Assembly: GCA_002433895.1 (NCBI GenBank)
Contig: DJJA01000003.1
Span: forward strand, 9,950 to 73,949
Source: Candidatus Gottesmanbacteria bacterium UBA6580
GTDB lineage: Bacteria > Patescibacteriota > Microgenomatia > UBA10105 > UBA927
Length of the DNA stretch: 64,000 bases
Direction: 5' to 3'
The notes under the pieces: generated by a model
The model's input: the letters and a program-made list of their open reading frames with translations, nothing else
Told to the model about the DNA's origin: nothing
Database searches by the model: none
Shown here: one piece after another, positions 1 to 38,005 of the stretch
How the letters are laid out: each line of letters begins with the position of its first letter
Position numbering within the stretch: position 1 is the first letter of the stretch
Translations under genes and position numbers: made by a program

Positions 1-1873
1 GGAGCTCTCCGCCAGAAAAATGCTTCACATTACTGTCCATCCGGTCAGCGATATGGTCTAAATGCAAATCATGGAGCACCTGTGTCACTTTGTCGGTATC
101 CACCTGTTTTTTGGTCCACAACAGGAGATTTTCCCGTAACGTCATGTTCTCAAAATATTGAGGGTTTTGGTTGGCATACGCGAGTTGTGAGTAGATAGAA
201 TGCTCGCCATATTTTTTAATCGAATTGAGATCGCGTCCTCCATACGATACCTTTCCCTCTTCCGCACCAAAAAGCCCCAACATGTGACGCAAGAATGTGG
301 TTTTCCCGATCCCCGATTGCCCCTTAATCGTCACAAAAGACCCCTGCGGAATATCCATGCTTACATCATGAAGAATGTTTTTAAATCCCAGTTTATTTAT
401 CGATATATCAAAATTTGGCAAACTTTCTACCGGCACGCGCAGTTTCTCACGGGCGCCATCTGGTGTATCTACTTGATCGTAAGGACCCAATAGCTCATTC
501 ATCCTACGGATATCCTGAAGTGCCGGCTGTATTTTATCGGTATAGTCATGCACCATTTCCTCTATCATGGCGCCATTTATTCCCTCAAGTGCCATAGTAC
601 TTGTACCCGCAAGCATCACATTAAGTGACGGGTTCGTAAATTTTCCTGCCTTCGCATCTTTATTGGTGAGCGCATCCCAATTCATCAACGCTTCCCAACC
701 TGCCGCGACAATAGGGATACCATAGGTATAACCCATGCCGTAATATGCCTCTTTTTTGTCCCGGTCACTTCGTGAAGAGTCTGCGGCGACATCAACCTCA
801 TCGCTTTTTGACATATTACTCTGCAACTCTTCCATGGCATTCACCATGCTATCGGTCGTGCGCACCACTTCCAGGCTCTGTAACGATGACAAAACGCGGG
901 CATCGATAAGGTCCTTGCGTTTGAGATTTTCAGCCCGCTCTTTCAATATTTTCCGTGCAGTTTGCTCCCCGTGACGCGCGAGAAATGGAATACGGATTAA
1001 CCCCAAAATACCGGCAGGAGGCGCGATCAGGAATTCAGTCGTGGTAATAGCGCCCAGGGCGGCCACTTTTGGCAACATTCCCTTGTATGTTATCCGCATC
1101 AAATCCACCGTCGCCTGCTTACCCTTATCGACAATATTCATGATTTCCGATGCCGGCTTGTCATGGATGAATTCAAAATCGCGCATAAATACGGACTGCG
1201 CAACACGGGTGTTAATAGCAGAGCGGAGCTTCATGGTGCTTTCCTCGAATTGTTTATTAATTCTCCTTCCGTTCACGAGCGGTGGAATAAGCCCCAACAC
1301 ATAGACATACGGTAGTGTTTCTTTTGCGATTGCCATTGCCCGCTTGAGGCGGTCCCAGTTTCCTTTTGCTGCTGAAAATTGCACCGCCTCAGCCACAGCT
1401 TTTTCGATGTGTCCAGGATTGGAAGCATGTTGTATCCCGTAGATACTCAGCGTTTCCAAAACAGTATTCGTGCGGATTTTATCGGCTGCTTCATAAAATT
1501 CCGGCGCTATCGAAGAAAATTTGTACGTTTTTTCTATATCGGTGACTATGCTTTTGTATTCCGCCATATCCTTCTGCATGTCCGGCGAAAAAACAACTTC
1601 AGAGGCGCGCTTCCCCGCATTTCCCACCGCTTCTTTTACTTTCTGACTGAGTGATGTGGTTTCCTGTGGAGTAAGCGGAACCTGATGTTGGGCAAAGTCT
1701 TTGCTCACCTCGCCGACAAGGGCGTTTGCCCCCTCTCCGATAGCTTTCGGATCCTGCGCTTCTAATGCATGCAGTAATTTCGAGGAAGCTCCGGTATTTT
1801 TCGGAGGTGTGGAAGGACGCTCAGAAACACGGGCATCTTTATGATGCAACGGTTTCGGCGCTTGTTCACTCAT
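1..1873 (-). CDS. ABC transporter ATP-binding protein with ~520 aa non-canonical N-terminal domain (C-terminus beyond window edge)
   Basis: Uninterrupted minus-strand frame from the ATG at 1873 to the window edge; absent from the ORF track only because no stop lies inside the window. My translation gives MSEQAPKPLHHKD... with Walker A GQSGIGKTT near residue 540 and FSGGE signature just before the window edge. The N-terminal 500 aa has a few Gly-rich hydrophobic stretches but is not a canonical 6-TM domain. Confidence 0.7.
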   Translation of the reverse strand, partial: MSEQAPKPLHHKDARVSERPSTPPKNTGASSKLLHALEAQDPKAIGEGANALVGEVSKDFAQHQVPLTPQETTSLSQKVKEAVGNAGKRASEVVFSPDMQKDMAEYKSIVTDIEKTYKFSSIAPEFYEAADKIRTNTVLETLSIYGIQHASNPGHIEKAVAEAVQFSAAKGNWDRLKRAMAIAKETLPYVYVLGLIPPLVNGRRINKQFEESTMKLRSAINTRVAQSVFMRDFEFIHDKPASEIMNIVDKGKQATVDLMRITYKGMLPKVAALGAITTTEFLIAPPAGILGLIRIPFLARHGEQTARKILKERAENLKRKDLIDARVLSSLQSLEVVRTTDSMVNAMEELQSNMSKSDEVDVAADSSRSDRDKKEAYYGMGYTYGIPIVAAGWEALMNWDALTNKDAKAGKFTNPSLNVMLAGTSTMALEGINGAMIEEMVHDYTDKIQPALQDIRRMNELLGPYDQVDTPDGAREKLRVPVESLPNFDISINKLGFKNILHDVSMDIPQGSFVTIKGQSGIGKTTFLRHMLGLFGAEEGKVSYGGRDLNSIKKYGEHSIYSQLAYANQNPQYFENMTLRENLLLWTKKQVDTDKVTQVLHDLHLDHIADRMDSNVKHFSGGEL

Positions 1874-1879: not shown

Positions 1880-1888
1880 ATTATAGCA
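1880..1888 (-). promoter_or_regulatory. Extended -10 element (TGnTATAAT) 6 nt upstream of the ABC gene ATG; possible leaderless transcript
   Basis: Minus-strand sequence tgcTATAATcgttgtATG; no convincing -35 element. Confidence 0.3.
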
Positions 1889-2053
1889 AACATACGACAA
1901 CGAAAGGAAAGCAGTGAAGGGAGCGTCGTTATTGGTTTTTATACTCGGAAATTACCCAGCGGAGCCCTAGATTAAACTCACCGGTTACGTTCTCCGGCGC
2001 TTTCACGGCGTTTGTAAAATACATCGCGAGGCAAAAAAGGAAGGCCTCAACCG

Positions 2054-2557
2054 TTATGCTGCGGCTGGCTTTGGCGCACGGAAGTTGGTCCACATGCTCC
2101 TGGCTTTTTCAGGAATACTCTTAATGAACGTGAGAGCCTGGGCGCCTTTTTCTTTCACTGCTCCTTTTGCGACTTCCAGTCCAAATGCACCCATTGTCCC
2201 CTGATCGGCAAGCCACTTTCCAATAGGTCCGCCTTTGGCAATAATAGTACGGAATTTCTCACTCCCGACAAGACCGCCGGCAAACCCAACAACTGCGGTC
2301 GCGGTAGCAAGTGCGCCAACTCGTTTTCCGACAGCAATCCTTGCGGATTTCGTGGCGTCAGATTCAATCTGAGACATCACCGCTTGTCGTTGTTCATCGG
2401 TTAAACCGTTATGCACATCCGCATATTTGGCAACCATTTCTTTATGATCCTGATACCATTTTTCTTTGGCGCCCGACACCGTAAACGCGCGGCGCAATCC
2501 TTCTTTTATTCCTTTTTTTGGTGGTTCCATTGACATTCCTATTTCTGCCATAGACAT
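2054..2557 (-). CDS. Hypothetical protein, cassette large member L1 (helical N-terminus, Gly/Ala-rich hydrophobic C-terminal half)
   Basis: 167 aa ORF. Shares architecture with the proteins at 2941..3438 and 3750..4280 (hydrophobic segment VGALATATAVVGFAGGLVG followed by a Trp-containing Gly-rich amphipathic segment). Confidence 0.5.
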   Translation of the reverse strand: MSMAEIGMSMEPPKKGIKEGLRRAFTVSGAKEKWYQDHKEMVAKYADVHNGLTDEQRQAVMSQIESDATKSARIAVGKRVGALATATAVVGFAGGLVGSEKFRTIIAKGGPIGKWLADQGTMGAFGLEVAKGAVKEKGAQALTFIKSIPEKARSMWTNFRAPKPAAA

Positions 2558-2588
2558 ATCCTTTCTTCTTTGGGCAAGATAATTTTAC

Positions 2589-2912
2589 TTATTTTACCTG
2601 ATCAATCCCCTCTTCTGAGAGTGCCTTATCGACTTCCGTCAGCACTTCATTCATCAGCGTGTCGATTTCCGTAAGCGCCTGGCCATCTTTAATCGTGTCA
2701 GTAATAAGCTGCGAATAGCTCTCCACCGTCACCCTACTTTTTGGATCTGCCGCCAAAAAATCAAGCTGGTCTTTGGGCATGTATTTCAGTAATACCGGCC
2801 ACACTGTTACCTGAAGCCCCTCAGAAATGGTGGTATAAAGCTCTGCCTTTTCTTCTTCAGAAAGCTTACTCTGCTCTATTCTTGTTACAATTGCTTTTAG
2901 TTTGTCTTCCAT
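2589..2912 (-). CDS. Hypothetical acidic helical protein, cassette small member S1
   Basis: 107 aa ORF. Clear paralog of 3435..3746 and 4277..4618 (IEQSKLSEEEKAELYTTISEGLQVTVWPVLLKYMP versus IEASSLSADEKAQLYAAISGGLQGSVWPVLIKLAP). Confidence 0.55.
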   Translation of the reverse strand: MEDKLKAIVTRIEQSKLSEEEKAELYTTISEGLQVTVWPVLLKYMPKDQLDFLAADPKSRVTVESYSQLITDTIKDGQALTEIDTLMNEVLTEVDKALSEEGIDQVK

Positions 2913-2940
2913 GCCGCCTCCTTTATGAGCGTTCCCCTAT

Positions 2941-3438
2941 TTAGGGAATAATTTTTATTTTAGACGGTAACCCTGGACCTTTAGCAAAAAAGTCACCGAT
3001 GTTTTTGGCGATGTCTGAAAGTTTATTTGGTACATCAATAAGAATTGTCTTGTGGGGATCAAACATCCATGTCCGAACTGCTTCAAGCCCTGTGCCAATT
3101 GCTACCGGTGCGGTTTTGGTCAAAAATGCCCACATAGCCGGCAATCCGCCAGTCGCAATACTCCACCCTGCCGCAAGTCCTGCGCCGGTGATGATCCAGT
3201 TACGGACAACCTTACGCATCGCGGTTTTATGAATTGCTTTTTCATTGAACGCTATCAGTTCTTCCCGTTGTGCGGGGGTAAAACTAGCATACAAATTGTT
3301 GTACTTTGTCACCTCTTTTGCAGTCGCCCCTTTGAGGGTATAGGTTTCTTTTAGAAACGTCGTAATCCGCTCAGCGACGCGCTTCACGGCTCCCGGCTCT
3401 TTATCCACATTCACTGGTGTTTCAGTTACTTCGGTCAT
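2941..3438 (-). CDS. Hypothetical protein, cassette large member L2
   Basis: 165 aa ORF; 4-nt start/stop overlap with the upstream S2 gene. Gly-rich hydrophobic region WIITGAGLAAGWSIATGGLPAMWAFL. Confidence 0.5.
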   Translation of the reverse strand: MTEVTETPVNVDKEPGAVKRVAERITTFLKETYTLKGATAKEVTKYNNLYASFTPAQREELIAFNEKAIHKTAMRKVVRNWIITGAGLAAGWSIATGGLPAMWAFLTKTAPVAIGTGLEAVRTWMFDPHKTILIDVPNKLSDIAKNIGDFFAKGPGLPSKIKIIP

Positions 3439-3746
3439 ATGTGCTCCTCCTTCAAGGCAGCATCGACTTCGTCCAATAATTTATTCATCGTTTCTTCTAT
3501 TTCCGCGTACGAGCTATCTGTATCAACAACTCCGGAAATAAGCGCATTGTACCGTTCCACTTTCTTCTTCTCATCAGTTTCTTTGAGAATTTCATCAATC
3601 TCATTGGGTGGAGCAAGTTTGATAAGTACCGGCCACACAGACCCCTGCAATCCTCCGGAAATTGCTGCATAAAGCTGCGCTTTCTCATCAGCAGACAGTG
3701 AAGATGCTTCTATGCGCGTGATGATATCATCGAGTCGCTGTTCCAT
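3435..3746 (-). CDS. Hypothetical acidic helical protein, cassette small member S2
   Basis: 103 aa ORF; paralog of S1 and S3. Confidence 0.55.
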   Translation of the reverse strand: MEQRLDDIITRIEASSLSADEKAQLYAAISGGLQGSVWPVLIKLAPPNEIDEILKETDEKKKVERYNALISGVVDTDSSYAEIEETMNKLLDEVDAALKEEHI

Positions 3747-3749
3747 AGC

Positions 3750-4280
3750 TTATACGGCAACAGGAGCTGGCTCTCCCGGTTTTACCCGTTCCCCGCCGTG
3801 CAGTATTTTATTGACGATCGGTGCCACCGCTTCTGAAGTGACGACTGCGCCGCCTACTTTTGCCATTTTTCCTACTGCCCACTCCACCGGTCGGTACCGC
3901 ATTGTTGCCCACATACCAACGCCTTTAGTAAGCAATGAGCCTCTCATTGCAAATGGTATAACAACGGCAGTCAGCGCTATATCGGCAAGACGCGCACCAA
4001 ACTGAGCTATTTGAGCTGCTTCGTATGCCGCTGGGCGCAAGTCTGCGAGCATCTTTTGGGAACCCTCGTATCCTTTATTCCCCATCCGGTCAATCATCTG
4101 CTCGTAAGCCTCCACAGTTTCTACCAACGGTGCTGCACGCCGTACTTTTTCTGGCACAAGCGGGGTTTTAACATTCTTTTCCCGCCCACCCTGGAACCGC
4201 CCACTCTGTTTCATCTCAAGATAGGCAATTGCCCTACTCCTCGGACTCATTGCTGCTTCACCCATAGATTGCTCACTCAT
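3750..4280 (-). CDS. Hypothetical protein, cassette large member L3
   Basis: 176 aa ORF; 4-nt overlap with S3. Hydrophobic LADIALTAVVIPFAMRGSLL followed by the Trp/Gly-rich segment GVGMWATMRYRPVEWAVGKMAKVGGAVV. Confidence 0.5.
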   Translation of the reverse strand: MSEQSMGEAAMSPRSRAIAYLEMKQSGRFQGGREKNVKTPLVPEKVRRAAPLVETVEAYEQMIDRMGNKGYEGSQKMLADLRPAAYEAAQIAQFGARLADIALTAVVIPFAMRGSLLTKGVGMWATMRYRPVEWAVGKMAKVGGAVVTSEAVAPIVNKILHGGERVKPGEPAPVAV

Positions 4281-4618
4281 GCTATCCCTCCTTTGGAAAG
4301 GGCAGTTTCGATATCATCTAATACTTCCTGCGTTGCTGTGTTGAGCTCCTCATATAGCTTAGGATCACTTAATGGTTTTTTCATGAGTTCGATATAAGCA
4401 TCTACGGTTGCCTTGGACGCATCAGCGGCCATAGCCTTCACTTCTTCACTGGGAGCATGCTGTAAAATGATGGGAAGCACGGACTCGTGGAGATATTCAC
4501 TTATCTTGGCATACATCGCTTCTTTGTCTTCGTCAGTCCAGCCGGACTTTTCAATTTTTACCACTATATCGGTGAGCCTGCTTTCAAAACTTTGATTTGT
4601 TGTATTCATACTAAACAT
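4277..4618 (-). CDS. Hypothetical acidic helical protein, cassette small member S3 (start uncertain; ORF-track TTG at 4633, ATG at 4618 or 4609)
   Basis: Paralog of S1/S2 (VVKIEKSGWTDEDKEAMYAKISEYLHESVLPIILQHAP). Confidence 0.5.
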   Translation of the reverse strand: MFSMNTTNQSFESRLTDIVVKIEKSGWTDEDKEAMYAKISEYLHESVLPIILQHAPSEEVKAMAADASKATVDAYIELMKKPLSDPKLYEELNTATQEVLDDIETALSKGGIA

Positions 4619-4680
4619 CACTGTAGCGAACAATGAGATAGATTGTCAACAAGCTTGAGGCAGCGCTTGTTTCTTTACCC

Positions 4681-4710
4681 ATAGTAGTGTCCTGTAGGCA
4701 CACCTGTCAA
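4681..4710 (-). promoter_or_regulatory. Candidate sigma70-type promoter for the cassette array (-35 TTGACA, 18-nt spacer, -10 TACTAT on the minus strand)
   Basis: Reverse complement of 4681..4710 reads TTGACAggtgtgcctacaggacacTACTAT. It sits between the gdhA stop and the S3 start. Confidence 0.35.
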
Positions 4711-4729: not shown

Positions 4730-6061
4730 TCACTTCATTGCTTTAAGTATCCGCCCGAGTGCCACGATAAATGCCGCAGTTCGCAAATCCGTTTTATGAG
4801 CAACAGATGCCTGCCATACCGCTTCGGCGGCTGCGGCCATCTTATGCGCAAGCTTTTTATTTACTTGGGCTTTTGTCCAGTGCTGCCCTTTCAAATTCTG
4901 CTCCCACTCAAATGCCGACACCGTCACTCCCCCGCTATTACTAAGGATATCCGGAATAACCGGGACACCCTTTTTGTACAGAATAACATCCGCCTCCGGT
5001 GTCGTCGGACCATTTGCCATTTCGAGCACGACCTTAGCTTTGATCTTACCGGCATTTTCCTGCGTTACCGCGTTTTCTAGTGCTGCCGGAACCAATATAT
5101 CGACCGGCAACTCCAGCAGTGCATCGTTGGTCACCTGCTTCCCTTTTTTCAAATCGCACACCGAACCGGAACAATAGCACCCGGCCAAATACCCGTTTTT
5201 CTTTTTACATTCAAGGGTAAGCGCCGGATTAATTCCGTCGGGAACATAAATACCACCCTTGCTATCCGAGACCGCCACCACGGTAATCCCCGCTTCATCC
5301 AAAAACTTCACGATGTTATACCCCACATTGCCAAAGCCTTGTACTGCCGCAGTAAGTTTTCCTTTGAGCCGTAGTTTTTTTAAGATTGCCTGCAGCACAA
5401 ATAATCCCCCCAACCCGGTGGCCTCTTCTCTCCCCTCACTTCCCCCGTCTTTGATTGCCTTTCCGGTAAACGTGCTTTTGAGCTTCATCTCATCGCGCTT
5501 CGTCAGTGTTTTACCGAATAGCTTTGCTTTTTTGCGCTGTGTTTTGAGAAACTCGTCGACCATCCACCCCATAATAATCCCGTTTGTGTTCACATCGGGT
5601 GCTGGTACATCAGTGTCGGGACCAATGATGTCCGCGATCGCTTCACCGTATCCACGGCTTAACCGCTCAAGCTCACCCACCGAAAGCATTTTCGGATCAA
5701 CGATAATACCGCCTTTTCCTCCGCCGAGCGGAAGATCAGCTACCGCACATTTCATCGCCATCCAAAACGACAGCGCCTTTACCTCATCCAAACTTACATT
5801 GTGGTGATACCGGATACCCCCTTTATATGGACCTCTACTGTTATTAAACTGCACCCGGTATCCTTGAAATATTTGCTGGGAACCGTCATCCATGATGACA
5901 GGAATGGTCACATTTACCACACGCTGTGGTTGCTTCAACCGGTCAATTTTTTGTTGTAATGCAGCTTTTTGCTTTCCCGTTAACTGCTTATTGTTCACGG
6001 TTACTTGTTCAGCTTTTTTAAGCTGACTCATTGCTGACAAAAAAGGGTTTATAGTAGACAT
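4730..6061 (-). CDS. gdhA: NAD(P)-specific glutamate dehydrogenase
   Basis: 443 aa. Glu/Leu/Phe/Val dehydrogenase motifs [15 protein letters not shown] and the GFGNVG Rossmann fold. Confidence 0.85.
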
Positions 6062-6103: not shown

Positions 6104-6802
6104 CTAATAAAATAGCTCTGATTTAATCTGCTCCTTGGGAACATTATGCGCTAATAACTGCTCCCTCACCTCTTCTATCATTCCTTTGTTCCCGCACAGA
6201 TAAAACTCACTTTGCTGCAGGTCTTTTTCCTGCGAAAAAACATGTTCTGTCACATGCCCCCGCAGACCTGTCCAGGCATCAGAAGGCTTCGACAGTATTT
6301 GGTGCCACGTAAACGCCGGATGACGGGATTGTAACTTGTCTAACTCGTCTTTCCAATAGATATCTTTTTCAAACCGTTGCCCCCAATACAGTTCTACATT
6401 CGCTCCCCCACCCCGATCGAAATAATCGATGATCATCCCTCGAAATGGTGCAATTCCGGTACCCGTTGCAATCATCACTTTTTTACGCGGTGAATCTGCA
6501 AACGATAACACACCCCCGGTCGGAGCGACGATAGTCGCCGTATCCCCGACTTTCAAACCCAACGTCCATTTGCTTCCCGGCCCCATAGGGCTCACATCGT
6601 GCACCATAAGCAACGACAGATTTTCAGACGGAGGGGATGCAATCGACATCGTTCGGTTCACCCCGGGAGCAATCATGAGCATCATGTTTTGTCCTGCACG
6701 AAAATCAATACTCGGGGGCAAAACGAGGGCAAAGGTTACGAAATATACTTTATCGGTCACCTGCTCTTTTGAGGTAACCTTAAGCGTGAACTTCTGTGCC
6801 AT
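6104..6802 (-). CDS. FAD/NAD(P)-binding oxidoreductase (ferredoxin-NADP reductase-like)
   Basis: 232 aa; R-x-Y-S-like FAD motif RTMSIAS, GTGIAPF and the C-terminal YLCGNKGM typical of the FNR family. Overlaps trxB by 23 nt. Confidence 0.65.
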   Translation of the reverse strand: MAQKFTLKVTSKEQVTDKVYFVTFALVLPPSIDFRAGQNMMLMIAPGVNRTMSIASPPSENLSLLMVHDVSPMGPGSKWTLGLKVGDTATIVAPTGGVLSFADSPRKKVMIATGTGIAPFRGMIIDYFDRGGGANVELYWGQRFEKDIYWKDELDKLQSRHPAFTWHQILSKPSDAWTGLRGHVTEHVFSQEKDLQQSEFYLCGNKGMIEEVREQLLAHNVPKEQIKSELFY

Positions 6803-7730
6803 GGGCTTCTAAATATTTTTCTGCGTCCATTGCTGCCATACACCCCTGTCCTGCGGCAACAATCGCCTGCCGGTACCGTGGATCTACACAATCCCCTGCT
6901 GCAAATATTCCCGGTACCGTTGTTTCTGTTTGTGCCGCAAGAGGTGATACCCCACGCTTTACCACCACATAGCCTTTTGGATCTAATTCAACCACACCCT
7001 GTAAAAATCCCGTGCTTGGCTTGTGCCCGATAGCCAAAAACACTCCTTGCGTCGGATAATCGGTAATCTCCCCTGTCTTTGCGTCCTTGAGCCGGATACC
7101 TGTTACCTCTGTATCGCCTAATATCTCTTCAACGATTTTATTCGTCAAAAAACTGATGCGGTCATCCTTTTTTGCCCGGTCAAGCATAATCGCTGATGCG
7201 CGGAACTCATCCCTCCGGTGAACAATAGTTACTTTCGGAGAGAATTTCGTGAGAAACGTCGCCTCCTCCATTGCGGTGTCCCCGCCACCGATTACCGTGA
7301 CAACTTTTCCCCGGAAGAAAAATCCATCACAGGTAGCACACCCCGACACGCCCTTACCTTTCAGCCGCTCTTCACTCGGTAACCCTAGATACATAGCAGA
7401 TGCGCCGGTGGCCACAATGACCGTTTTTGCCGTGTATTCATTGTTTTGTGTTGTAACGGTGAATACCGTGCCTTTGTTAATACCCGTCACGACCTCCTGC
7501 TTTATCTCCGCGCCAAAGCGCTCCACCTGCGTTTTCATATCAGTCACGAGCTGTGGCCCCATTATCCCTTTGGGAAATCCCGGGAAATTATCAACCTCTG
7601 TTGTCGTGGTAAGCTGTCCTCCCGGTTCTAATCCTGACAATACGAGAGTTTTAAGAAACGCACGGGAGGTATACAGTGCGGCCGTATAGCCCGCCGGCCC
7701 TGAACCGATGATGATGACATCGTACGTCAT
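6780..7730 (-). CDS. trxB: Thioredoxin-disulfide reductase
   Basis: 316 aa; N-terminal GSGPAG FAD motif, redox-active CATC, second GGGDTA dinucleotide motif. Confidence 0.9.
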   Translation of the reverse strand: MTYDVIIIGSGPAGYTAALYTSRAFLKTLVLSGLEPGGQLTTTTEVDNFPGFPKGIMGPQLVTDMKTQVERFGAEIKQEVVTGINKGTVFTVTTQNNEYTAKTVIVATGASAMYLGLPSEERLKGKGVSGCATCDGFFFRGKVVTVIGGGDTAMEEATFLTKFSPKVTIVHRRDEFRASAIMLDRAKKDDRISFLTNKIVEEILGDTEVTGIRLKDAKTGEITDYPTQGVFLAIGHKPSTGFLQGVVELDPKGYVVVKRGVSPLAAQTETTVPGIFAAGDCVDPRYRQAIVAAGQGCMAAMDAEKYLEAHGTEVHA

Positions 7731-7765
7731 ATTACTTTTTTAAAATACAACACGTGCTACCGCAA

Positions 7766-8074
7766 TTATTTATTCAACTCAGCAACCAAGGTGTCTTTAC
7801 TGGTAACCCCAATAAACTGTTTCGTTACTGCCCCTCGGTTAAACACCATAAGGGTAGGAATACTCATGATTCCGTACTTTTGTGCGTTGACCGGATTCTC
7901 ATCCACATTCAACTTGACGACCTTTGCCTTATCTCCTACTGCGGCGGCGACTTCCTCTACTATCGGCCCCTGCACCTGGCACGGACCGCACCAGACTGCC
8001 CAAAAATCAACGAGCACCGGCTTATCTGATTGCAATACTTCTGTATCAAATGTTTGATCGGTTACGTCTGCCAT
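7766..8074 (-). CDS. trxA: Thioredoxin
   Basis: 102 aa; WCGPC active site. Confidence 0.9.
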   Translation of the reverse strand: MADVTDQTFDTEVLQSDKPVLVDFWAVWCGPCQVQGPIVEEVAAAVGDKAKVVKLNVDENPVNAQKYGIMSIPTLMVFNRGAVTKQFIGVTSKDTLVAELNK

Positions 8075-8195
8075 ATTGCCTCCTTTGCAACACTACCCAA
8101 TATATTTTAGGATTTTCAGTATACCACTGGAGCGCGCTCTGTAAACCCCGTCTGTTTTAGACTGTCCGTACGCGCCACAACAAAGAGGTACCTGC

Positions 8196-8399
8196 TTATT
8201 CGCGGATACGGTACCCAGCGGCTATGACCGCTTCTTTTACGAGATCGTCACTATTTTTTTCATCCATCTCTACTTCCACTATCTGCTTTGCAAAACTACA
8301 CCGGCCGTTAATTCCCCGGTCTTCCAATTCTCCTTCGATGAGCATGGCGCAACTTGCGCAATGCATCCCGTCAATCTGATACGTTTTTGTTTTTTTCAT
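8196..8399 (-). CDS. copZ: Heavy-metal-associated (HMA) copper chaperone
   Basis: 67 aa; GMHCASCA MxCxxC motif. Confidence 0.8.
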   Translation of the reverse strand: MKKTKTYQIDGMHCASCAMLIEGELEDRGINGRCSFAKQIVEVEMDEKNSDDLVKEAVIAAGYRIRE

Positions 8400-8410
8400 A
8401 TACTGGTTGA

Positions 8411-9418
8411 TTATTTTACAATGAAAGTGCCACCATACATCCCCATACTACAACTAAACGGTAACTCTCCGCTGGTATCCGGAGCGGTAAAGCTCACCGT
8501 GGTTGTCTGTCCCACCGGCACCACCTCCTGTATTCCAAGCTGCGGGATGGTGAATGCCTGGATACACCCCTCCCCCGCGGTATTCGTTAGGGTAAGCGTA
8601 ACATCTTGCCCTTTCGGAATAACCGGGTTATCTATCCTGTAGCCATTGAGCCAAAATGTAATAACTGGCGTCGTCGTCGGTTCACCCGTGCTTTGCCCAT
8701 CAGGGCAAAATGTGATGGTGCAATACGCAGAGCGCGCGAGTGATTTCAACGTCACTGTAGACCCGTACAACGTGAGCGCTGCGTTGAAATTAATGAGTGC
8801 AAGCACCATCACGAGCGTTGCGGCGACAACACCGAACTTATCCTTCAGTGTCGCTTTAATAACGTCGATCGAAACCCCAAGAAGGAAAAATAACGGTGCG
8901 GTTCCCAACACAAACACGAAAAGCACCGCCATCCCCCACCATGGACTTCCGGTGCCAGCTGCCAACGCCATCATTGCCTGCGTTGTCCCGCAAGGAATAA
9001 AAACAGAAAGTAATCCGATTACAAATGGCGCAAATACTCCCCCCGCCTTTGCCCTACCTCTGATAAACTTGGTGAGAAACCGCGGCGGCTGGATGACAAA
9101 ATAACGGAATAATGGATGCACGTCGAGAAAGGAAAGCGCTGTACCAATCATAAAAAACGAAGCTAAACCGATACCGATAGCCTGTGCCCTCGGTGATAAT
9201 CCAACTTGTGACCCTACCCACCCCAGAAAGAACCCCAACACTGCATGAGAAATAAGCTTAGCAAGTAAAAATGACGCCACTCCCCACGCCCGTGACCCCC
9301 GGGGATGCTCTTCTTCTTCAGAAGAAAGTGCAGTCACGAGTAAGCCTCCCTGTACGGCCATACAGGTCAGGCCGCCCGCGATTAAACCGGTCGTAAATAT
9401 GATCCAAAGGTTAGGCAT
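8411..9418 (-). CDS. Membrane protein: DsbD/CcdA-like transmembrane domain fused to a C-terminal cupredoxin-like domain
   Basis: 335 aa; multiple TM helices with Cys in TM segments (GGLTCMAV, IPCGTTQ). C-terminal domain ends SCSMGMYGGTFIV, resembling the cupredoxin_1-type C-terminus also seen in 9834..10187. Confidence 0.55.
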   Translation of the reverse strand: MPNLWIIFTTGLIAGGLTCMAVQGGLLVTALSSEEEEHPRGSRAWGVASFLLAKLISHAVLGFFLGWVGSQVGLSPRAQAIGIGLASFFMIGTALSFLDVHPLFRYFVIQPPRFLTKFIRGRAKAGGVFAPFVIGLLSVFIPCGTTQAMMALAAGTGSPWWGMAVLFVFVLGTAPLFFLLGVSIDVIKATLKDKFGVVAATLVMVLALINFNAALTLYGSTVTLKSLARSAYCTITFCPDGQSTGEPTTTPVITFWLNGYRIDNPVIPKGQDVTLTLTNTAGEGCIQAFTIPQLGIQEVVPVGQTTTVSFTAPDTSGELPFSCSMGMYGGTFIVK

Positions 9419-9445
9419 ATAAGTAAGGTAGTATAACCCGGCTAG

Positions 9446-9473
9446 TTGACATTCTGCAAAATGATGGTACGAT
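9446..9473 (+). promoter_or_regulatory. Sigma70-like promoter for csoR-cupredoxin-copA (-35 TTGACA, 16-nt spacer, -10 TACGAT)
   Basis: TTGACAttctgcaaaatgatggTACGAT directly upstream of the operator and csoR. Confidence 0.45.
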
Positions 9474-9476
9474 CAT

Positions 9477-9498
9477 TATATCCCTATGGGGGGGATAA
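9477..9498 (+). promoter_or_regulatory. CsoR-type operator (GC-tract pseudo-palindrome TATCCCTATGGGGGGGATA)
   Basis: Resembles the known B. subtilis CsoR copZA operator type (TACCCnnnnGGGGTA class). Lies between the promoter and the csoR start. Confidence 0.5.
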
Positions 9499-9556
9499 AC
9501 GTCAATACAGCAGTTTGGTTCACCCTAATTTGAACCATAAAATATAAGGAGTATAT

Positions 9557-9841
9557 ATGCCAAAAGGAATACCGCGAAATCAGACCGTACAACAAAAAAT
9601 CCTGCACCGCATGAAGATCGCGCGCGGACACCTCAACCGCGTCATCCGCATGATGGAACATGGCGATTATTGCGTCAACATAATCCATCAATCCCTTGCG
9701 GTACAGGCGGCTTTACGGAGCACCGACCAGGAGATTCTCAGGAACCATCTGGTTACCTGTGTCGCGGAAGAGATAAAAAAAGGTAATGCTGATGAGGTCA
9801 TCGAGGAAGTTATGAAAGTCATGGAGAAACAACATGGATAA
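9557..9841 (+). CDS. csoR: CsoR/RcnR-family copper-sensing transcriptional repressor
   Basis: 94 aa; DUF156-like with RGHLNRV, the metal ligands C..H..C (HGDYCVNIIHQ) and the LVTCV cysteine. Confidence 0.8.
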   Translation: MPKGIPRNQTVQQKILHRMKIARGHLNRVIRMMEHGDYCVNIIHQSLAVQAALRSTDQEILRNHLVTCVAEEIKKGNADEVIEEVMKVMEKQHG

Positions 9842-10187
9842 ACTAATAGTCACGCTCCTTGGCGCTGCTTCAATCGGCTTTATCTATTGGTTTTTCTTTG
9901 GGAAAAAAGAAGAGGCTGCGCAACCTAAAAATGTGTGGAGCATTCTCGTGGAAGGCGGATACAAACCATCCACGGTCACCATCTCCCACGGGGCACCGGC
10001 AACAATTACCTTCACCCGCAAGGATCCAAACAGCTGCCTGGAAGAAATTGTGCTTCCGGATTTTAAAATTAAAAAATTCCTTCCGTTGCATAAAGCAATA
10101 ACAGTGACTATATCCCCCGTCAAAAAGGGAACCTATGACATCCACTGCGGCATGAATATGTATCACGGAAAAATTATCGTTGTATGA
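9834..10187 (+). CDS. Cupredoxin-like domain protein with N-terminal TM anchor
   Basis: 117 aa; ends [19 protein letters not shown] (cupredoxin_1-type C-terminus). Overlaps csoR and copA starts. Confidence 0.6.
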
Positions 10188-12442
10188 CAAAAACATCATT
10201 CCCCATTATCGGTATGCATTGTGCAAGCTGCGCCCGGCTTATCGAACGGCAGCTCAAAAAAACACCGGGAGTATCTGATGCTGCCGTAAACTACGGTTCA
10301 GAACAGGCAAGCGTTGAATGTGATCCATCGGTCGCAACGCCGGAAGCACTGGCGGGTGCGGTCGCCGCCGCGGGTTACAAAGCGGTTGTGGGTGACGCGC
10401 CCCGCAAAACCGCATCGGGGTCTGTTATGACGCCGGACGATATAAAGGAAGAAGCAAAACGCAACGAACTCGCCGAGCTCAAAACGAAGGTTATCGTGTC
10501 GGGTGTATTAAGTGTTGTAATAATGCTCGGAAGTTTTCCTGAGTGGTTTACCGGAATATTCTCGGGCATAAGCTCCATTTACGCATTGTTGGCTGCTCCC
10601 GCTACACTCCTCCTCCTCACCATTCCCGTACAATTCTGGGCGGGCAAATCGTTTTATCAGGCAACGTGGTCGGGACTCAAAAACAGAACGGCAAGCATGG
10701 ATACGCTTATTGCGATAGGAACCACTGCCGCATTTGGCTACTCACTTACCACTCTTTTTCCTGAGCCTCTGGAAGCGCTTGGCGTTCCCATGACCATGTA
10801 CTATGACACCGCTGCCGTTATTATCACGCTCATTCTGCTCGGGCGTTATCTGGAGGCAAAGGCAAAGGCGCACACATCAGACGCCATCAAAAAACTCCTG
10901 CATCTTCAGGCAAAGACAGCCAGAGTTGTTCGCGGCGGCAAAGAAATTGATATCCCTATAGATCAGGTAAAAAAAGGAGATACTATAAGAGTGCGTCCGG
11001 GTGAAAAAATTCCGGTTGACGGCACCATTTCCGAAGGGTCAAGTTCTGTTGATGAGTCCATGGTCACCGGCGAATCCATTCCGGTTGATAAAAAACGTGG
11101 AGACACCGTAATCGGAGCGACGATTAACCGGACCGGCACATTCCTCTTTACTGCCACCAAAGTCGGCAATGAGACCCTACTGTCTCAAATTGTGACCATG
11201 GTATCGGAAGCACAAAGTTCACGGGCACCCATCCAACGGCTTGCTGATGTTGTTTCGGGTTATTTTGTTCCGGTGGTACTCATGCTTGCTGTTGCGACGT
11301 TTGTTGTCTGGTATGACGTGGGTCTCCCCACCCAGGCATTTGTCAACCTTATCGCGGTACTTATTATCGCCTGTCCGTGCGCCTTGGGACTCGCCACCCC
11401 AACCGCTATCATGGTCGGCACCGGCAGAGGGGCGGAGCGCGGTGTGCTTATAAAGGATGCCGAGGCACTCGAGACTGCCCACAAAATCAAAGTTGCGGTA
11501 TTTGATAAAACCGGCACGCTCACCCGCGGTAAACCAACGGTCACGGATATTATTCCGGTCGCAAAAATGAATGCTCATAAAGTATTGTCGCTTGCCGCTT
11601 CACTCGAAATGGGATCTGAGCATTCACTGGCAGAAGCAATCGTTTCTGCGGCTACGGAAAAAAACCTCCCATTAACCAAAGTAGGCTCTTTCCGGGCAAT
11701 AGCAGGACACGGCGTGACCGGGAGCTTGGCCGGTAAACTGCTCGCTTTGGGAAACCGGCTACTCATGGCGAAGCAATCAGTTGTCTATAGCGTTCACGAA
11801 AAGAAAATCGCAGCACTGGAAACACAAGGAAAAACGGTCATGCTTCTTGCGTCAGGAAAACAACTTCTTGGTCTTATTGCCATTGCCGATACGCTGAAAA
11901 ACGATGCAAAAGACATGGTGGCTGCACTCAAAAAAATGCATATAACGGTCTGGATGATCACTGGTGACAACCCGCGGACTGCACACGCTATCGCGAATCA
12001 AGCAGGCATCAATCATGTGCTCGCGGGCGTCCTTCCACAGGAAAAAGCCAATAAAATCAGGGAACTCAAAGCCAACAACGCCGTCGTTGCGTTTGCCGGA
12101 GATGGCATTAACGACGCACCCGCACTCGCCGGGGCAGATGTGGGTATCGCCATGGGAACAGGCACTGATGTCGCCATAGAATCTGCCGGCATTACGCTGC
12201 TTAACAAGGACTTACGAAGCGTCGTCACCGCCATCAAACTTTCTAAGGCAACACTATCAATTATCAAACAAAACTTGTTCTGGGCATTCGCCTACAATGT
12301 GATACTCATCCCCGTCGCGGCAGGAGTCCTCTACCCCATCACCGGCTGGCTACTTAATCCTGCGCTTGCGGCATTTGCCATGGCAGCAAGCAGTATTTCC
12401 GTTGTCGGAAATTCGTTAAGACTAAAAAGAGTAAATATATAA
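10184..12442 (+). CDS. copA: Copper-translocating P1B-type ATPase
   Basis: 752 aa; N-terminal [16 protein letters not shown] motif, phosphorylation site DKTGTLT, hinge GDGINDAP. Confidence 0.9.
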
Positions 12443-18282: not shown

Positions 18283-19638
18283 TCATATTTCCAGCATGAG
18301 CTGCTCACGGCTTTTATCGGCAATCCCCTCTTCTCCGGCTCCCCAGATTTTTACCACACCAAACACGCCATCATACCCGGGATCGATGGTGAGCTTTCCT
18401 TTACGGACCAGATCGATCCCGGTCGCAATTTTTTCACCCGCCACCCGCGCGATATCATGAATCTCGGCGCGGAGAAGTACCGAAAATTCACTCCCTACCT
18501 CATCAGTAAGTCGACTGTAAGGTGTCTGCACTTTGGGACTAGTAACCGGAGAACCGATAGATTCCGCAATGATTTCCATAAGCGGCACCATCATCATAAA
18601 CGGTGGTCTATCCGGAAAAACCGCGCTTCCGAACAAGGGCGTCTTGATCGACGGATCGCTCGGCTTCACCTCGGCAAGTTTTACCGCATCTTCTGTTCTT
18701 CCAGCTAAATCATCGACCCGGTGCATCACTCCTACGGTAAGTGGCTTGCCGCATACCGGACAGGTTGCGCCTTTTTCACGGGTTTCTTCCGGCGTCTGCC
18801 GCACTTTGCAGGTGCGGTGGCCGGTGTAGTGATACTTCCCTTCCTCCGGATAAAACTCAATAGTATACGCGATAGTACTTTTACCTGATTGTTTGCCTTC
18901 CGGCACGCGTAGCGCTTCGTAAATTGCGTTGTAGCTTAATTGCCCTTCGGGTATTTCAAATACAGTCGCTTCCCGGCCGAGTTTTGCACCTGAATGTGCA
19001 TCGGAAAACGATACAATTGACCGCAGATCGAGCTCGGGGATGCGCCAATTCATTACGGGATTACTCGATAAACCTGTTTCTATGGCGTAAATATATTGTG
19101 CGTATGGACCGAATGCTTCCTCAATACTGTCAAAGCCGCCTAAACTCCCATACACACTAAACCATGGCGTCCACGCGTGCGCCGGAATAATGAGCGCCTT
19201 GGGCTCAATAGTAAAAACAAGCTCAGCAATCTGTACACTCGTAAGTCCGACAATCGGCCGGCCGTCACTCAGGAGGTTACATCCCCGCCTGGTCATCTCC
19301 AGACTAATCTTTCGGGCAGTATCAATGCTCGGTACCCAAATTAACGTGTGCACACGCCGCACTCTCCCCCCTTGTGAGTAAATACACGACACTTCCGTGG
19401 CAAGTAAAAAAAGCGGTGCGCCGGTATTATCACCCTTTAACCGTAATAACCCGTTACCGGTTTCTTCTAAATCACGTTCTATCTCACGAAACCATTGAGG
19501 ATGTGTCCAGTCGCCTGTGGCGACAAGTCCAATACCTTTCCTTTTTGCCCACAGCGCGATATTTGGAATAGTCATTGCCGGGGAAACTGCACGGGAAAAC
19601 CGTGAGTGCAGCTGTAAATCAGCAATAATCTCGGCCAT
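18283..19638 (-). CDS. Endonuclease Q-like PHP-domain nuclease with C-terminal zinc ribbon
   Basis: 451 aa; collinear with archaeal EndoQ: DLQLHSRFSRAVS, GTGD, PAHAWTPW, SDAHS..LGRE, GKYHYTGH, CPVCG zinc finger, RPPFMMMVPLMEIIA, EFGSE, DPGYDGVFGVVKI. Confidence 0.7.
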   Translation of the reverse strand: MAEIIADLQLHSRFSRAVSPAMTIPNIALWAKRKGIGLVATGDWTHPQWFREIERDLEETGNGLLRLKGDNTGAPLFLLATEVSCIYSQGGRVRRVHTLIWVPSIDTARKISLEMTRRGCNLLSDGRPIVGLTSVQIAELVFTIEPKALIIPAHAWTPWFSVYGSLGGFDSIEEAFGPYAQYIYAIETGLSSNPVMNWRIPELDLRSIVSFSDAHSGAKLGREATVFEIPEGQLSYNAIYEALRVPEGKQSGKSTIAYTIEFYPEEGKYHYTGHRTCKVRQTPEETREKGATCPVCGKPLTVGVMHRVDDLAGRTEDAVKLAEVKPSDPSIKTPLFGSAVFPDRPPFMMMVPLMEIIAESIGSPVTSPKVQTPYSRLTDEVGSEFSVLLRAEIHDIARVAGEKIATGIDLVRKGKLTIDPGYDGVFGVVKIWGAGEEGIADKSREQLMLEI

Positions 19639-36271: not shown

Positions 36272-36344
36272 CGCGGGGTAGTGTAAAGTTGCACAGGAGG
36301 CTCATAATCTCCTAGGCTGGGTGCGATTCCCAGCCCCGCAACCA
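36272..36344 (+). tRNA. tRNA-Met (anticodon CAU) with initiator-like acceptor stem (C1.A72 mismatch) and 3' CCA
   Basis: Cloverleaf: acceptor CGCGGGG/CCCCGCA, U8, D-stem GUGU/GCAC with short 6-nt D-loop, anticodon loop CUCAUAA, T-stem CUGGG/CCCAG, discriminator A, encoded CCA. The acceptor is identical to E. coli tRNA-fMet. Confidence 0.75.
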
Positions 36345-37908: not shown

Positions 37909-37983
37909 GAGCCAGCGTAGCTCAGTGGTAGAGCAGTGTCTTCATAAGGCATTTGTCGCAGGTCCGATCCCTGCCGCTGGCAC
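37909..37983 (+). tRNA. tRNA with CAU anticodon (elongator tRNA-Met or tRNA-Ile2/lysidine), encoded CCA
   Basis: Acceptor GCCAGCG/CGCUGGC, D-arm GCUCAGUGGUAGAGC, anticodon loop UUCAUAA, T-arm GCAGG-UCCGAUC-CCUGC, discriminator A + CCA. Confidence 0.8.
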
Positions 37984-38005
37984 CAGATAGAAACCTCACT
38001 GGTGA

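What the first reader, a model, noticed from the sequence alone, without database searches (positions are those of the whole stretch)
2054..4633. Tandem triplication of a diverged two-gene cassette (acidic helical ~105-118 aa protein + ~165-176 aa Gly/Ala-rich membrane-like protein) next to an atypical ABC ATPase
Three consecutive minus-strand gene pairs (S3-L3, S2-L2, S1-L1) have the same architecture and clearly homologous sequences. The small members share a conserved core, (I/V)E(Q/A/K)S.L(S/T).(E/D)(E/D)K(A/E).(L/M)Y..IS.(G/Y)L(Q/H)..V(W/L)P(V/I)(L/I).K..P. The large members share a helical N-terminus, one Ala/Gly-rich hydrophobic segment and a second Trp-containing Gly-rich amphipathic segment. 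Each pair has a 4-nt start/stop overlap, implying translational coupling. The array begins 96 nt downstream of gdhA behind a candidate TTGACA/TACTAT promoter and ends ~180 nt upstream of an ABC ATPase with an unusual N-terminus. Neither protein type matches any family I recognise. Divergent paralogous pairs arrayed beside an exporter are the hallmark organisation of bacteriocin/immunity or polymorphic toxin/immunity loci, and also of some chaperone/effector sets. A membrane-inserting effector with a cognate acidic immunity or chaperone partner is a reasonable hypothesis, but it is inference.
Basis: partly seen in the sequence, partly recalled or inferred. Interest (0 to 1): 0.85.

Follow-up and report, generated by a model that had tools for sequence, protein, structure and literature searches.

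The report
Uncharacterised paired-gene array beside divergent ABC ATPases
Three back-to-back pairs of a small acidic helical protein and a larger basic protein with one greasy segment are real, conserved genes that form one arm of a roughly 14-kb operon around two unusual ABC ATPases, found only in Candidatus Gottesmanbacteria, and no database or fold search says what it does.

Summary
Six minus-strand genes (S1-L1-S2-L2-S3-L3, 4609-2054) lie between gdhA and a truncated ABC gene. All six are under purifying selection (dN/dS 0.007-0.07).

- **Homology:** the three S proteins are clear paralogues. L2 and L3 join only at profile level. L1 joins only through intermediates.
- **Overlaps:** two of the three pairs overlap by 4 nt, not all three.
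- **Conservation:** the array is syntenic across about 26 Gottesmanbacteria-type loci. The common layout is gdhA-(S-L)x3-[X-Y]-ABC1-ABC2-(large basic, small acidic)x3.
- **Database matches:** S, L and the other partners match nothing significant in Pfam, NCBIfam, PADLOC, PHROGs, PDB, phages or plasmids. An exhaustive search finds only 55 L-family clusters.
- **Rates:** S3 is as conserved as housekeeping genes or more so. L proteins diverge fast, with a conserved N-terminal 80 residues and swappable C-tails.
- **ABC proteins:** the nucleotide-binding domain is ABCB-like. The exporter-type membrane domain is barely recognisable and poorly hydrophobic.

Best reading (confidence about 0.35): S proteins are conserved cytosolic adaptors or chaperones for fast-evolving L clients that the ABC pair exports or inserts. 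An immunity role for S is disfavoured. No toxin activity is shown.

The parts
4681..4710 (-).
   Evidence: 10 of 12 matches. Conserved in L015 and L005 but not L003. Site counts are not above shuffled controls.
4620..4649 (-). Promoter-like site TTGACA-18-TACAGT. It is the best conserved, ends 10 nt before the S1 ATG, and contains the TTG at 4633.
   Evidence: Conserved in W, L015, L003, L005 and L025 despite diverged flanks.
4277..4609 (-). S1: small acidic helical protein, 110 aa from ATG 4609 (the longest ORF starts at TTG 4633). It belongs to the 'SGWTDEDK' orthogroup.
   Evidence: dN/dS 0.040.
3750..4280 (-). L1: basic 176-aa protein with one hydrophobic segment (residues about 88-124). 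It overlaps S1 by 4 nt (ATGA). It is a divergent member of the L family.
   Evidence: dN/dS 0.069.
3435..3746 (-). S2: small acidic helical protein, 103 aa. It starts 3 nt after the L1 stop.
   Evidence: dN/dS 0.046.
2941..3438 (-). L2: basic 165-aa protein with a Gly/Ala/Trp-rich hydrophobic segment (residues about 77-107). It overlaps S2 by 4 nt.
   Evidence: dN/dS 0.051.
2589..2912 (-). S3: small acidic helical protein, 107 aa, with its own AAGGAGG ribosome-binding site. It is the most conserved gene of the neighbourhood.
   Evidence: dN/dS 0.007. AlphaFold2 model with pLDDT 80, all helical.
2054..2557 (-). L3: basic 165-167-aa protein (probable start ATG 2551). The N-terminal roughly 80 residues are conserved, followed by a hydrophobic Gly/Ala segment (residues 78-101) and a variable basic amphipathic C-tail.
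1911..2321 (-). Replaced segment: the C-terminal half of L3 plus the spacer. It has no nucleotide similarity to the closest relative, which carries 1313 bp here instead (a different L3 tail plus X234 plus Y93).
   Evidence: blastn colinear at 81% on both sides..
1880..1888 (-). TGCTATAAT, an extended -10-like element 6 nt upstream of the ABC1 ATG. It suggests a separate, near-leaderless ABC1 transcript.
   Evidence: Read from the sequence. Conserved in L015, L003 and L005, and nearly so in L023. Function is inferred.
2..1873 (-). ABC1, first 624 of about 722 aa, cut by the window start. It has a roughly 200-aa soluble N-extension, a highly divergent and poorly hydrophobic exporter-type helical domain, and an ABCB-like nucleotide-binding domain.

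Best explanation
The six genes form the upstream arm of a lineage-specific (Candidatus Gottesmanbacteria) operon built around a pair of divergent ABC exporter-like ATPases. Each L protein is a fast-evolving client. It has a conserved helical N-terminal module of about 80 residues, one Gly/Ala-rich hydrophobic segment and an exchangeable basic C-tail. Each S protein is a conserved, acidic, all-helical cytosolic partner. S is made by coupled translation just before its L. I propose that S binds the conserved N-terminal or hydrophobic part of L, keeps it soluble, and presents it to the ABC1/ABC2 machine, which then inserts L into the membrane or exports it. Shown: gene reality, paralogy, conservation, stoichiometry, rate asymmetry, tail swapping, and the ABC nucleotide-binding domain type. 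Inferred: S-L binding, ABC dependence, and the destination of L.
For: - **Conserved pairing.** S-then-L adjacency with about 1:1 stoichiometry holds in 26 loci, including S-S fusions followed by L-L.
- **Coupled translation.** Gaps are tiny or 4-nt overlaps.
- **ABC linkage.** Linkage to ABC1-ABC2 persists even where ABC1 is only 33% identical.
- **Charge complementarity.** Small proteins have pI about 4.4-5.6 and large partners about 9.2-10, across all six pair types of the full cluster.
- **Rate asymmetry.** S3 is 73-99% identical with dN/dS 0.007, while L proteins are 23-66% identical at the same distances. This fits a partner that contacts conserved machinery or a conserved module.
- **Modular L.** The N-terminal 80 residues are 60-96% identical and the C-tail 15-63%. 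Family members range from 99 to 406 aa through C-terminal variation. A cassette-like replacement separates the window from its closest relative.
- **L may need a partner or membrane.** L alone gives no confident fold (pLDDT 48.6), while S folds well (pLDDT 80).
- **ABC type.** The nucleotide-binding domains are ABCB/PCAT1-like. Sub-threshold but colinear ABC_membrane matches occur in 7 of 17 members.
- **Precedent.** Small helical partners encoded upstream target modular effectors to an ATPase-driven exporter in the Lap1/Lap2-LXG system of T7SSb (PMC9600955, PMC10801868).
Against: - No S-L interaction was computed or measured.
- The ABC membrane domains are so weakly hydrophobic (at most one 19-residue window with mean Kyte-Doolittle hydropathy of 1.5 or more per protein, against six in a control membrane protein) that a classical translocation channel is doubtful.
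- The L hydrophobic segment is borderline for a transmembrane helix (peak 1.2-1.7).
- L has no signal or leader motif, and no peptidase or accessory secretion component was found.
- ABC1 seems to have its own conserved promoter-like element, so co-regulation with the S/L arm is not shown.
- The S fold matches nothing informative.
- The analogy with Lap/LXG is functional only.
Confidence: 0.35

Rival explanations
1. Integral parts of one multi-subunit ABC machine. The L proteins, and the X and Z-type large proteins, would supply the membrane-embedded helices that the polar ABC1/ABC2 helical domains lack. The small acidic proteins would be assembly or regulatory subunits. The cluster would then be a composite transporter for an unknown cargo, not a substrate/chaperone set.
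For: The ABC helical domains are poorly hydrophobic. Every large partner carries one or two Gly/Ala-rich hydrophobic segments. Gene order and copy number around the ABC pair are fixed. All genes are under purifying selection.
Against: Structural subunits of one machine should not evolve several times faster than the ATPase, and should not swap C-tails or vary between one and three copies among close relatives. X234-Y93 is dispensable: it is absent from the window.
Confidence: 0.2
2. Bacteriocin or polymorphic toxin (L) with cognate immunity protein (S), exported by the adjacent ABC transporter.
For: Several diverged paralogous pairs sit beside ABC genes. L has a conserved N-terminal part and variable, cassette-like C-tails. 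One family member has a C-terminal JAB-like HxH...SxxD motif, though Pfam Prok-JAB gives only E 0.03. Glycine-zipper proteins exported by an ABC system exist in the Cdz system (PMC5380434).
Against: S is upstream of L and is the most conserved gene, rather than co-diversifying with the L tail. S is soluble and acidic, whereas immunity to membrane-active toxins is normally a membrane protein, as with CdzI (PMC5380434). No toxin domain, double-glycine leader, C39 peptidase or HlyD was found. The locus is chromosomally fixed, syntenic and of normal composition, with no phage or plasmid relatives.
Confidence: 0.12
3. Membrane-tethered sequestration switches of the anti-sigma type. L would be a single-pass sensor whose cytoplasmic N-domain holds the soluble regulator S at the membrane until a signal acting on the variable outer C-tail releases it.
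For: The L architecture (conserved N-domain of about 80 aa, one hydrophobic segment, variable C-terminal part) and the upstream, translationally coupled small partner mimic sigma/anti-sigma operons.
Against: S has no sigma-70 region 2 or region 4 or other DNA- or RNAP-binding family hit, and it is strongly acidic. The only structural hits to sigma domains are noise: Foldseek E above 3 and TM-score about 0.2. The idea explains neither the ABC pair nor the six-fold repetition.
Confidence: 0.08
4. Stress-protective amphipathic proteins (LEA-, phasin- or PspA-like membrane-surface binders) with acidic partners. They would be co-located with the redox and copper stress genes and unrelated in function to the ABC genes.
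For: L tails and the Z-type proteins are Ala/Lys/Gly-rich amphipathic helices. The neighbours are trx, trxR, an FNR-like reductase, gdhA, a copper ATPase, CsoR and a DsbD-cupredoxin protein.
Against: No match to LEA, PspA, phasin or YtxH families. Linkage to the ABC pair is invariant, with pairs on both sides. Fast divergence and tail swapping are unusual for such proteins.
Confidence: 0.07

Closest known systems
Lap1/Lap2 (DUF3130/DUF3958) targeting factors with LXG effectors of the type VIIb secretion system (PMC9600955, PMC10801868)
   Same: [quoted passage not shown] In that system the small proteins stay cytoplasmic, bind the N-domain and target the effector to an ATPase-driven exporter. 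The rate asymmetry and gene order here fit that logic.
   Different: No sequence or fold relation was found: no WXG100, LXG, DUF3130 or DUF3958 hits. There is one small partner per client, not two. The neighbouring ATPases are ABC-type, not EssC/FtsK-type. L carries a hydrophobic segment and mostly short basic tails without recognisable toxin domains. No downstream immunity gene is present.
Dedicated ABC peptide and bacteriocin exporters (PCAT1, ComA, NHLP-type ABC pairs) and the Cdz glycine-zipper system exported by a type I system (PMC5380434)
   Same: The ABC1 nucleotide-binding domain matches ABCB and PCAT1 chains best, with PCAT1 alignments reaching about 50 residues upstream of that domain. 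Two adjacent half-transporter-like genes sit beside multiple small diverged genes. Gly-rich hydrophobic segments occur in L and especially in X234.
   Different: No C39 peptidase, double-glycine leader, HlyD-type partner or membrane immunity protein is present. The clients are 165-400 aa, not peptides. The ABC membrane domains are barely recognisable (13-20 bits against a 28-bit cutoff) and poorly hydrophobic. A lineage-specific N-extension of about 200 aa is present.
ECF sigma / single-pass anti-sigma operons
   Same: A small soluble protein is encoded upstream and translationally coupled to a protein with a conserved N-domain of about 80 aa, one hydrophobic segment and a variable C-terminal region.
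   Different: S has no sigma domains, is only about 105 aa and is acidic. Six such pairs flank two ABC ATPases.

Membership tests
ABC exporter, type IV fold (ABCB-like half-transporter): applies to ABC1 | ABC nucleotide-binding domain with Walker A, signature and Walker B motifs | tested here: met
   Pfam ABC_tran scores E 5.6e-19 on the truncated window copy and 1.2e-32 on the full orthologue. The best PDB matches are ABCB1, ABCB4, BSEP and PCAT1.
ABC exporter, type IV fold (ABCB-like half-transporter): applies to ABC1 | Six-helix ABC_membrane (PF00664) transmembrane domain N-terminal to the nucleotide-binding domain | tested here: inconclusive
   PF00664 is hit by 7 of 17 cluster ABC proteins, but only at 13-20 bits against a cutoff of 28. 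The hits are always colinear (protein residues about 245-390 to profile positions 70-212). The PDB profile search aligns only the nucleotide-binding domain. At most one segment per protein reaches a 19-residue Kyte-Doolittle mean of 1.5, against six in a control membrane protein.
Class II bacteriocin or PCAT-type export locus | C39 peptidase domain on the ABC protein and a double-glycine leader on the substrate | tested here: not met
   No Peptidase_C39 hit on any of the 17 ABC proteins. The L N-termini form a conserved 80-aa helical module, not a short GG leader.
Polymorphic toxin/immunity system | Conserved N-terminal trafficking part with a variable C-terminal part | tested here: met
   L3 orthologues are 60-96% identical at the N-terminus and 15-63% in the C-tail. 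Family lengths run from 99 to 406 aa. There is a cassette-like replacement relative to L015.
Polymorphic toxin/immunity system | Recognisable toxin domain in the variable C-terminus | tested here: not met
   No Pfam hit at E 0.02 or better on the C-terminal parts of 10 long family members. The closest is one weak JAB-like match at E 0.03. The window L tails are 60-70 aa basic amphipathic helices.
Polymorphic toxin/immunity system | Cognate immunity gene immediately downstream that co-varies with the toxin tail | tested here: not met
   S lies upstream and is more conserved than L. L3 tail type does not track the presence of the downstream X234-Y93 pair: L003 and L005 carry the window-type tail together with X-Y.
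Type VIIb secretion LXG/Lap or WXG100 system | Membership of the WXG100, LXG, DUF3130 or DUF3958 families, with an EssC FtsK-type ATPase | tested here: not met
Type I secretion / Cdz-like glycine-zipper bacteriocin system | ABC protein plus HlyD-family membrane fusion protein, with small glycine-zipper substrates and a membrane immunity protein | tested here: not met
   No HlyD or other Pfam family appears on any neighbour in four gene-called loci. GxxxG runs are clear only in X234, which the window lacks. S is soluble.
ECF sigma / anti-sigma pair | Sigma-70 region 2 and region 4 domains in the upstream protein | tested here: not met
   No sigma family hit at E 1 or better in Pfam or NCBIfam.
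Known anti-phage defence or phage-derived module | Match to PADLOC or PHROGs models, or to phage or plasmid records | tested here: not met
   PADLOC gives no hits. PHROGs gives only E 0.004 or weaker, to families of unknown function. tblastn of S3 against phages and of L3 against plasmids gives no match.

The most novel reading that the evidence does not exclude
The whole cluster, roughly 16-18 genes, would be a previously unrecognised protein export or surface-assembly apparatus specific to a CPR lineage. It comprises three small-then-large pairs, two or three ABC ATPases whose exporter-type helical domains have lost most hydrophobicity, and three large-then-small pairs. Acidic helical adaptors would deliver a rapidly diversifying set of basic, membrane-active or surface-displayed proteins, possibly used in contact with host cells.
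Probability: 0.25. Interest if true: 0.85.

Novelty: new variant of a known kind. Interest (0 to 1): 0.55.

Why it matters
CPR/Patescibacteria have tiny genomes of about 1 Mb, are thought to live attached to other cells, and carry many genes of unknown function. This cluster takes up more than 1% of such a genome. It is kept in the same chromosomal place across the clade and is under purifying selection, yet every component except an ABC nucleotide-binding domain is unrecognisable.

Its organisation gives concrete, testable hypotheses for how these organisms place fast-evolving proteins in or beyond their membrane: six acidic-small/basic-large pairs arranged around an atypical ABC pair, with one ultra-conserved small protein and fast-evolving, tail-swapping partners. 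If the ABC proteins really work with a largely non-hydrophobic 'membrane' domain, that would also interest ABC transporter mechanists.

If the cluster proves to be an ordinary accessory transporter, the finding is a modest addition of two lineage-restricted protein families.

Tried and rejected
- **Family libraries.** Pfam, NCBIfam, PADLOC and PHROGs scans of S1-3 and L1-3, and Pfam or PADLOC scans of the off-window partners, gave only noise.
- **L3 fold.** The AlphaFold2 model was unusable (pLDDT 48.6), so no fold search was run on L.
- **Profile searches against PDB sequences.** S gave nothing. L gave only a repeat-summed hit to the staphylococcal protein A motif 'LNEEQRNAFIQSL', with no single stretch significant. 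I treat this as a shared helix-capping motif, not homology. The three downstream large families gave nothing.
- **Are all six small proteins and the L N-domain one family?** They share an 'IExS.L(S/T)xE(E/D)K..L' motif, but only motif-level support emerged: hhalign 33% for S against the downstream small proteins, and 10% for S against L. The three downstream small families do unite (90.6%).
- **Are L, X234 and the Z-type large proteins homologous?** Not supported.
- **Does the L3 tail type co-vary with the presence of X234-Y93?** No.
- **Locus scans.** The genome scan with a 43-sequence alignment failed for lack of a conserved block. Single-protein scans gave 13 genome loci and 8 metagenome loci.
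- **Literature.** Searches for this cluster in CPR papers found nothing relevant.
- **Terminator.** No intrinsic terminator was predicted between L3 and ABC1.


Full report
**What is in the sequence.**
Between gdhA (4730-6061, minus strand) and an ABC gene that starts at 1873 and runs off the window start, there are six tightly packed minus-strand ORFs:

| Gene | Coordinates |
|---|---|
| S1 | 4277-4633 |
| L1 | 3750-4280 |
| S2 | 3435-3746 |
| L2 | 2941-3438 |
| S3 | 2589-2912 |
| L3 | 2054-2557 |

- The S proteins are 103-110 aa with pI 4.3-4.5.
- The L proteins are 165-176 aa with pI 9.7-9.9 and 19-27% Gly+Ala.
- S1/L1 and S2/L2 overlap by ATGA. L1 to S2 is a 3-nt gap.
- L2 to S3 (28 nt) and S3 to L3 (31 nt) have spacers with Shine-Dalgarno sequences. 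The claim that every pair overlaps by 4 nt is therefore true for two of three.
- Orthologues start at 'MNT...', and the TTG at 4633 lies inside a conserved promoter-like element. S1 therefore most likely starts at ATG 4609, giving 110 aa.
- L3 probably starts at ATG 2551, like its 99%-identical homologue P0121, which starts MAEIG.

**Are these real genes, and are they paralogues?**
I compared the window with its closest relative, a 1.17-Mb contig (L015) that is 81% identical in DNA.
- All six genes have dN/dS of 0.007-0.07. The flanking trxR, fnr, gdhA and ABC1 give 0.03-0.09. All six are coding and under purifying selection.
- S1, S2 and S3 are unambiguous paralogues: BLASTP E 1e-10 to 1e-26, 31-46% identity.
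- Each S has its own orthogroup in other genomes, so the triplication is old.
- The L proteins are much less alike. Pairwise BLASTP finds nothing.
- L2 and L3 merge into one family only in iterated searches over related loci and through intermediate orthologues.
- L1 is linked only marginally by profile-profile comparison (P 3e-4 and 4e-3) and by a few sequences that hit both profiles.
- 'Clearly homologous' holds for S. For L it holds only at profile level.

**Where it comes from and how far it extends.**
- S homologues (153 hits) and L homologues (37 hits) come from Patescibacteria, mainly Candidatus Gottesmanbacteria. None carries a Pfam domain.
- An exhaustive HMMER pass of an L2/L3 profile over 1.84 billion cluster representatives found only 55 proteins at E 1e-3 or better.
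- The ABC N-terminal 490 residues have only 31 relatives, all in the same clade.
- In 26 related loci the arrangement is conserved and chromosomal: trx-trxR-fnr-gdhA, then one to three S-L pairs, then an optional X234-Y93 pair, then ABC1 (sometimes a second ABC1-like gene) and ABC2.
- After ABC2 come three pairs in the opposite order (a basic protein of 300-400 aa, then an acidic protein of 85-105 aa) and two more proteins of about 300 aa.
- Written as strings, most loci read SLSLSL(xy)AA(A)zy(y)(y), and the number of S domains equals the number of L genes in most loci.
- In L009 two S domains are fused into one protein and followed by two L genes. L010 has the same fusion, but only one L gene was detected after it.
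- The reported triplication is therefore one arm of a cluster of about 14 kb and 16-18 genes. The rest lies beyond position 1 of the window.
- The window holds no other S, L or related ABC copy.
- The rest of the window is ordinary chromosome: a copper ATPase, DNA ligase, FtsH, tRNA synthetases and Mur ligases.

**What the proteins look like.**
- S, L and the other partners have no significant match in Pfam, NCBIfam, PADLOC or PHROGs, in PDB sequences, or in phage or plasmid records.
- L3 alone gives no confident model (pLDDT 48.6).
- Each L has one moderately hydrophobic Gly/Ala-rich segment, with a peak 19-residue Kyte-Doolittle mean of 1.2-1.7. No L has an N-terminal signal.
- Across the L family, the N-terminal roughly 80 residues and the position of the hydrophobic segment are conserved. 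The C-terminal part varies from about 50 to 300 residues and is mostly basic.
- Ten long family members have no significant Pfam domain. One has a JAB-like HxH...SxxD motif, at E 0.03 only.
- The L profile hit to staphylococcal protein A is a repeat-summed match to the helix-capping motif 'LNEEQRNAF'. It is not evidence of homology.

**Rates and mosaicism.**
I compared each window protein with the same genomes.

| Protein group | Identity to window |
|---|---|
| trx / trxR / gdhA | about 60-95% |
| S3 | 64-99% |
| S1 | 31-90% |
| S2 | 43-93% |
| L1 | 34-85% |
| L2 | 25-92% |
| L3 | 23-66% |

- S3 has the lowest dN/dS of the neighbourhood, 0.007.
- L3 orthologues are 60-96% identical over residues 1-80 and 15-63% identical over the tail. 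Some have a 91% N-terminus with a 21% tail.
- At DNA level the window and L015 are colinear at 81% except for window 1911-2321, which is the L3 C-terminal half plus the spacer. L015 has an unrelated 1313 bp here that encodes a different L3 tail plus X234 and Y93.
- Tail type and presence of X-Y vary independently among relatives.

**The ABC proteins.**
- ABC1 has a canonical nucleotide-binding domain. It is closest to ABCB-type exporters and to the bacteriocin exporter PCAT1.
- The preceding 490 residues match nothing at threshold.
- However, 7 of 17 cluster ABC proteins hit Pfam ABC_membrane at 13-20 bits (cutoff 28), always colinearly, with protein residues about 245-390 aligned to profile positions 70-212.
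- Hydropathy is anomalous. At most one 19-residue window per protein reaches a mean of 1.5, and ABC2 proteins mostly have none. A DsbD-type membrane protein from the same window has six.
- I read these proteins as highly derived exporter-fold half-transporters with a lineage-specific soluble N-extension of about 200 aa. Whether they still span the membrane conventionally is open.

**Transcription signals.**
- Two TTGACA-18-TAnnnT sites lie in the gdhA-S1 spacer. The proximal one (4649-4620) is conserved across relatives.
- A TGCTATAAT extended -10-like element sits 6 nt before the ABC1 ATG and is conserved in several relatives. This suggests a separate, near-leaderless ABC transcript.
- No terminator is predicted between L3 and ABC1.
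- These are consensus matches, and the overall site count is not above shuffled controls.

**Interpretation.**
The data fit best a client/adaptor logic.
- S is a conserved, soluble, acidic partner translated just before its basic, partly hydrophobic L.
- L is modular, with a conserved N-module and an exchangeable tail, and it evolves fast.
- Both are invariably linked to an ABC pair.
- The closest functional precedent is the Lap1/Lap2-LXG arrangement of type VIIb secretion, where small upstream helical proteins bind the conserved N-domain of polymorphic effectors and target them for export (PMC9600955, PMC10801868). There is no sequence, fold or ATPase-type relationship to that system, so this is analogy, not membership.
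- The immunity reading is disfavoured. S is upstream, soluble, and far more conserved than the variable part of L. Immunity to glycine-zipper toxins such as CdzC/D is a membrane protein (PMC5380434).
- A serious rival is that L and the other large proteins are membrane subunits that compensate for the polar ABC helical domains. Copy-number variation, tail swapping and fast divergence argue against fixed structural subunits but do not exclude this.
- Anti-sigma-like switches and stress-protective amphipathic proteins are weaker alternatives.
- My confidence in the adaptor/client-of-ABC model is about 0.35. The function is not established.

**Novelty and score.**
- The S and L families and the cluster are uncharacterised and confined to one CPR lineage.
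- The only recognisable part is an ABC nucleotide-binding domain.
- I file the finding as a new variant of a known kind: an ABC-ATPase-centred system with dedicated paired partners.
- I give about 0.25 probability that it is a distinct export or assembly apparatus.
- Interest is 0.55. The feature is real, conserved, large for a roughly 1-Mb genome and mechanistically odd. It is also taxonomically narrow and has no functional evidence yet.

Noticed in passing
L001:14400-15664; L015:17763-20118; L025:14444-20638 (off-window continuation of the cluster): Downstream of ABC2, relatives carry three further pairs in the opposite order: a basic 300-400-aa protein followed by an acidic 85-105-aa protein, often with 4-nt overlaps. 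Two proteins of about 300 aa follow. None has a Pfam or PDB match. The three small families are homologous to each other (hhalign 90.6%). They share only an N-terminal 'IExS.L(L)SxE(E/D)K' motif with S.
   Followed up: partly
window 1911-2321, compared with L015:10589-11901: There is a sharp break in otherwise colinear 81% DNA identity. The window has a 411-bp segment (the L3 C-terminal half plus spacer). The closest relative has an unrelated 1313 bp encoding another L3 tail plus X234, a GxxxG-rich 234-aa protein, and Y93. The site looks like a recombination or indel hot spot.
   Followed up: partly
L009:9527-10309, L010:9671-10309, L020 (241-aa ORF): These are natural S-S fusion proteins with two S domains in one ORF. 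In L009 the fusion is followed by two L-type genes, and in L010 by one detected L gene.
   Followed up: partly
window 2-1873 and ABC1/ABC2 orthologues (alignment A5): The exporter-type helical domain of these ABC proteins has almost no segment hydrophobic enough for a normal transmembrane helix. ABC2 proteins mostly have none, yet the intracellular-loop motifs are conserved. How such a protein sits in a membrane is unexplained.
   Followed up: partly
window 1880-1888 (-): TGCTATAAT lies 6 nt upstream of the ABC1 start codon and is conserved in several relatives. It suggests a leaderless or near-leaderless ABC1 mRNA. The proximal S1 promoter-like site also ends only 10 nt before its ATG.
   Followed up: partly
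P0169 (406 aa, L-family member from the exhaustive search): The C-terminal extension carries 'HYHPDDSPPSYGD', a JAB/MPN-like HxH...SxxD metalloprotease motif. Pfam Prok-JAB gives only E 0.03. It is the only hint of an enzymatic domain fused to an L N-module.
   Followed up: no
L003, L005, L007, L009, L012-L014 (record titles): Several public MAG records that carry this Gottesmanbacteria-type syntenic locus are titled 'uncultured Gammaproteobacteria bacterium'. This is most likely a labelling error in those assemblies.
   Followed up: no
window 6104-12442: A redox and copper-handling neighbourhood is conserved with the cluster. It holds an FNR-like reductase (6104-6802), thioredoxin reductase (6780-7730), thioredoxin (7766-8074), an HMA copper chaperone (8196-8399), a DsbD_2-cupredoxin membrane protein (8411-9418) and a P-type copper ATPase (10184-12442, + strand).
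   Followed up: partly
window 36272-36344 and 37911-37985 (+): Two tRNA-Met (CAT) genes lie 1.6 kb apart. They are the only RNA genes detected in the window.
   Followed up: no
window 18283-19638, 33995-35509, 58572-60227 (all -), and 48113-50602 (-): Three large ORFs (451, 504 and 551 aa) have no Pfam match at E 1e-5 or better. An 829-aa protein has only a DUF4012 domain. These are further uncharacterised genes in the same window.
   Followed up: no
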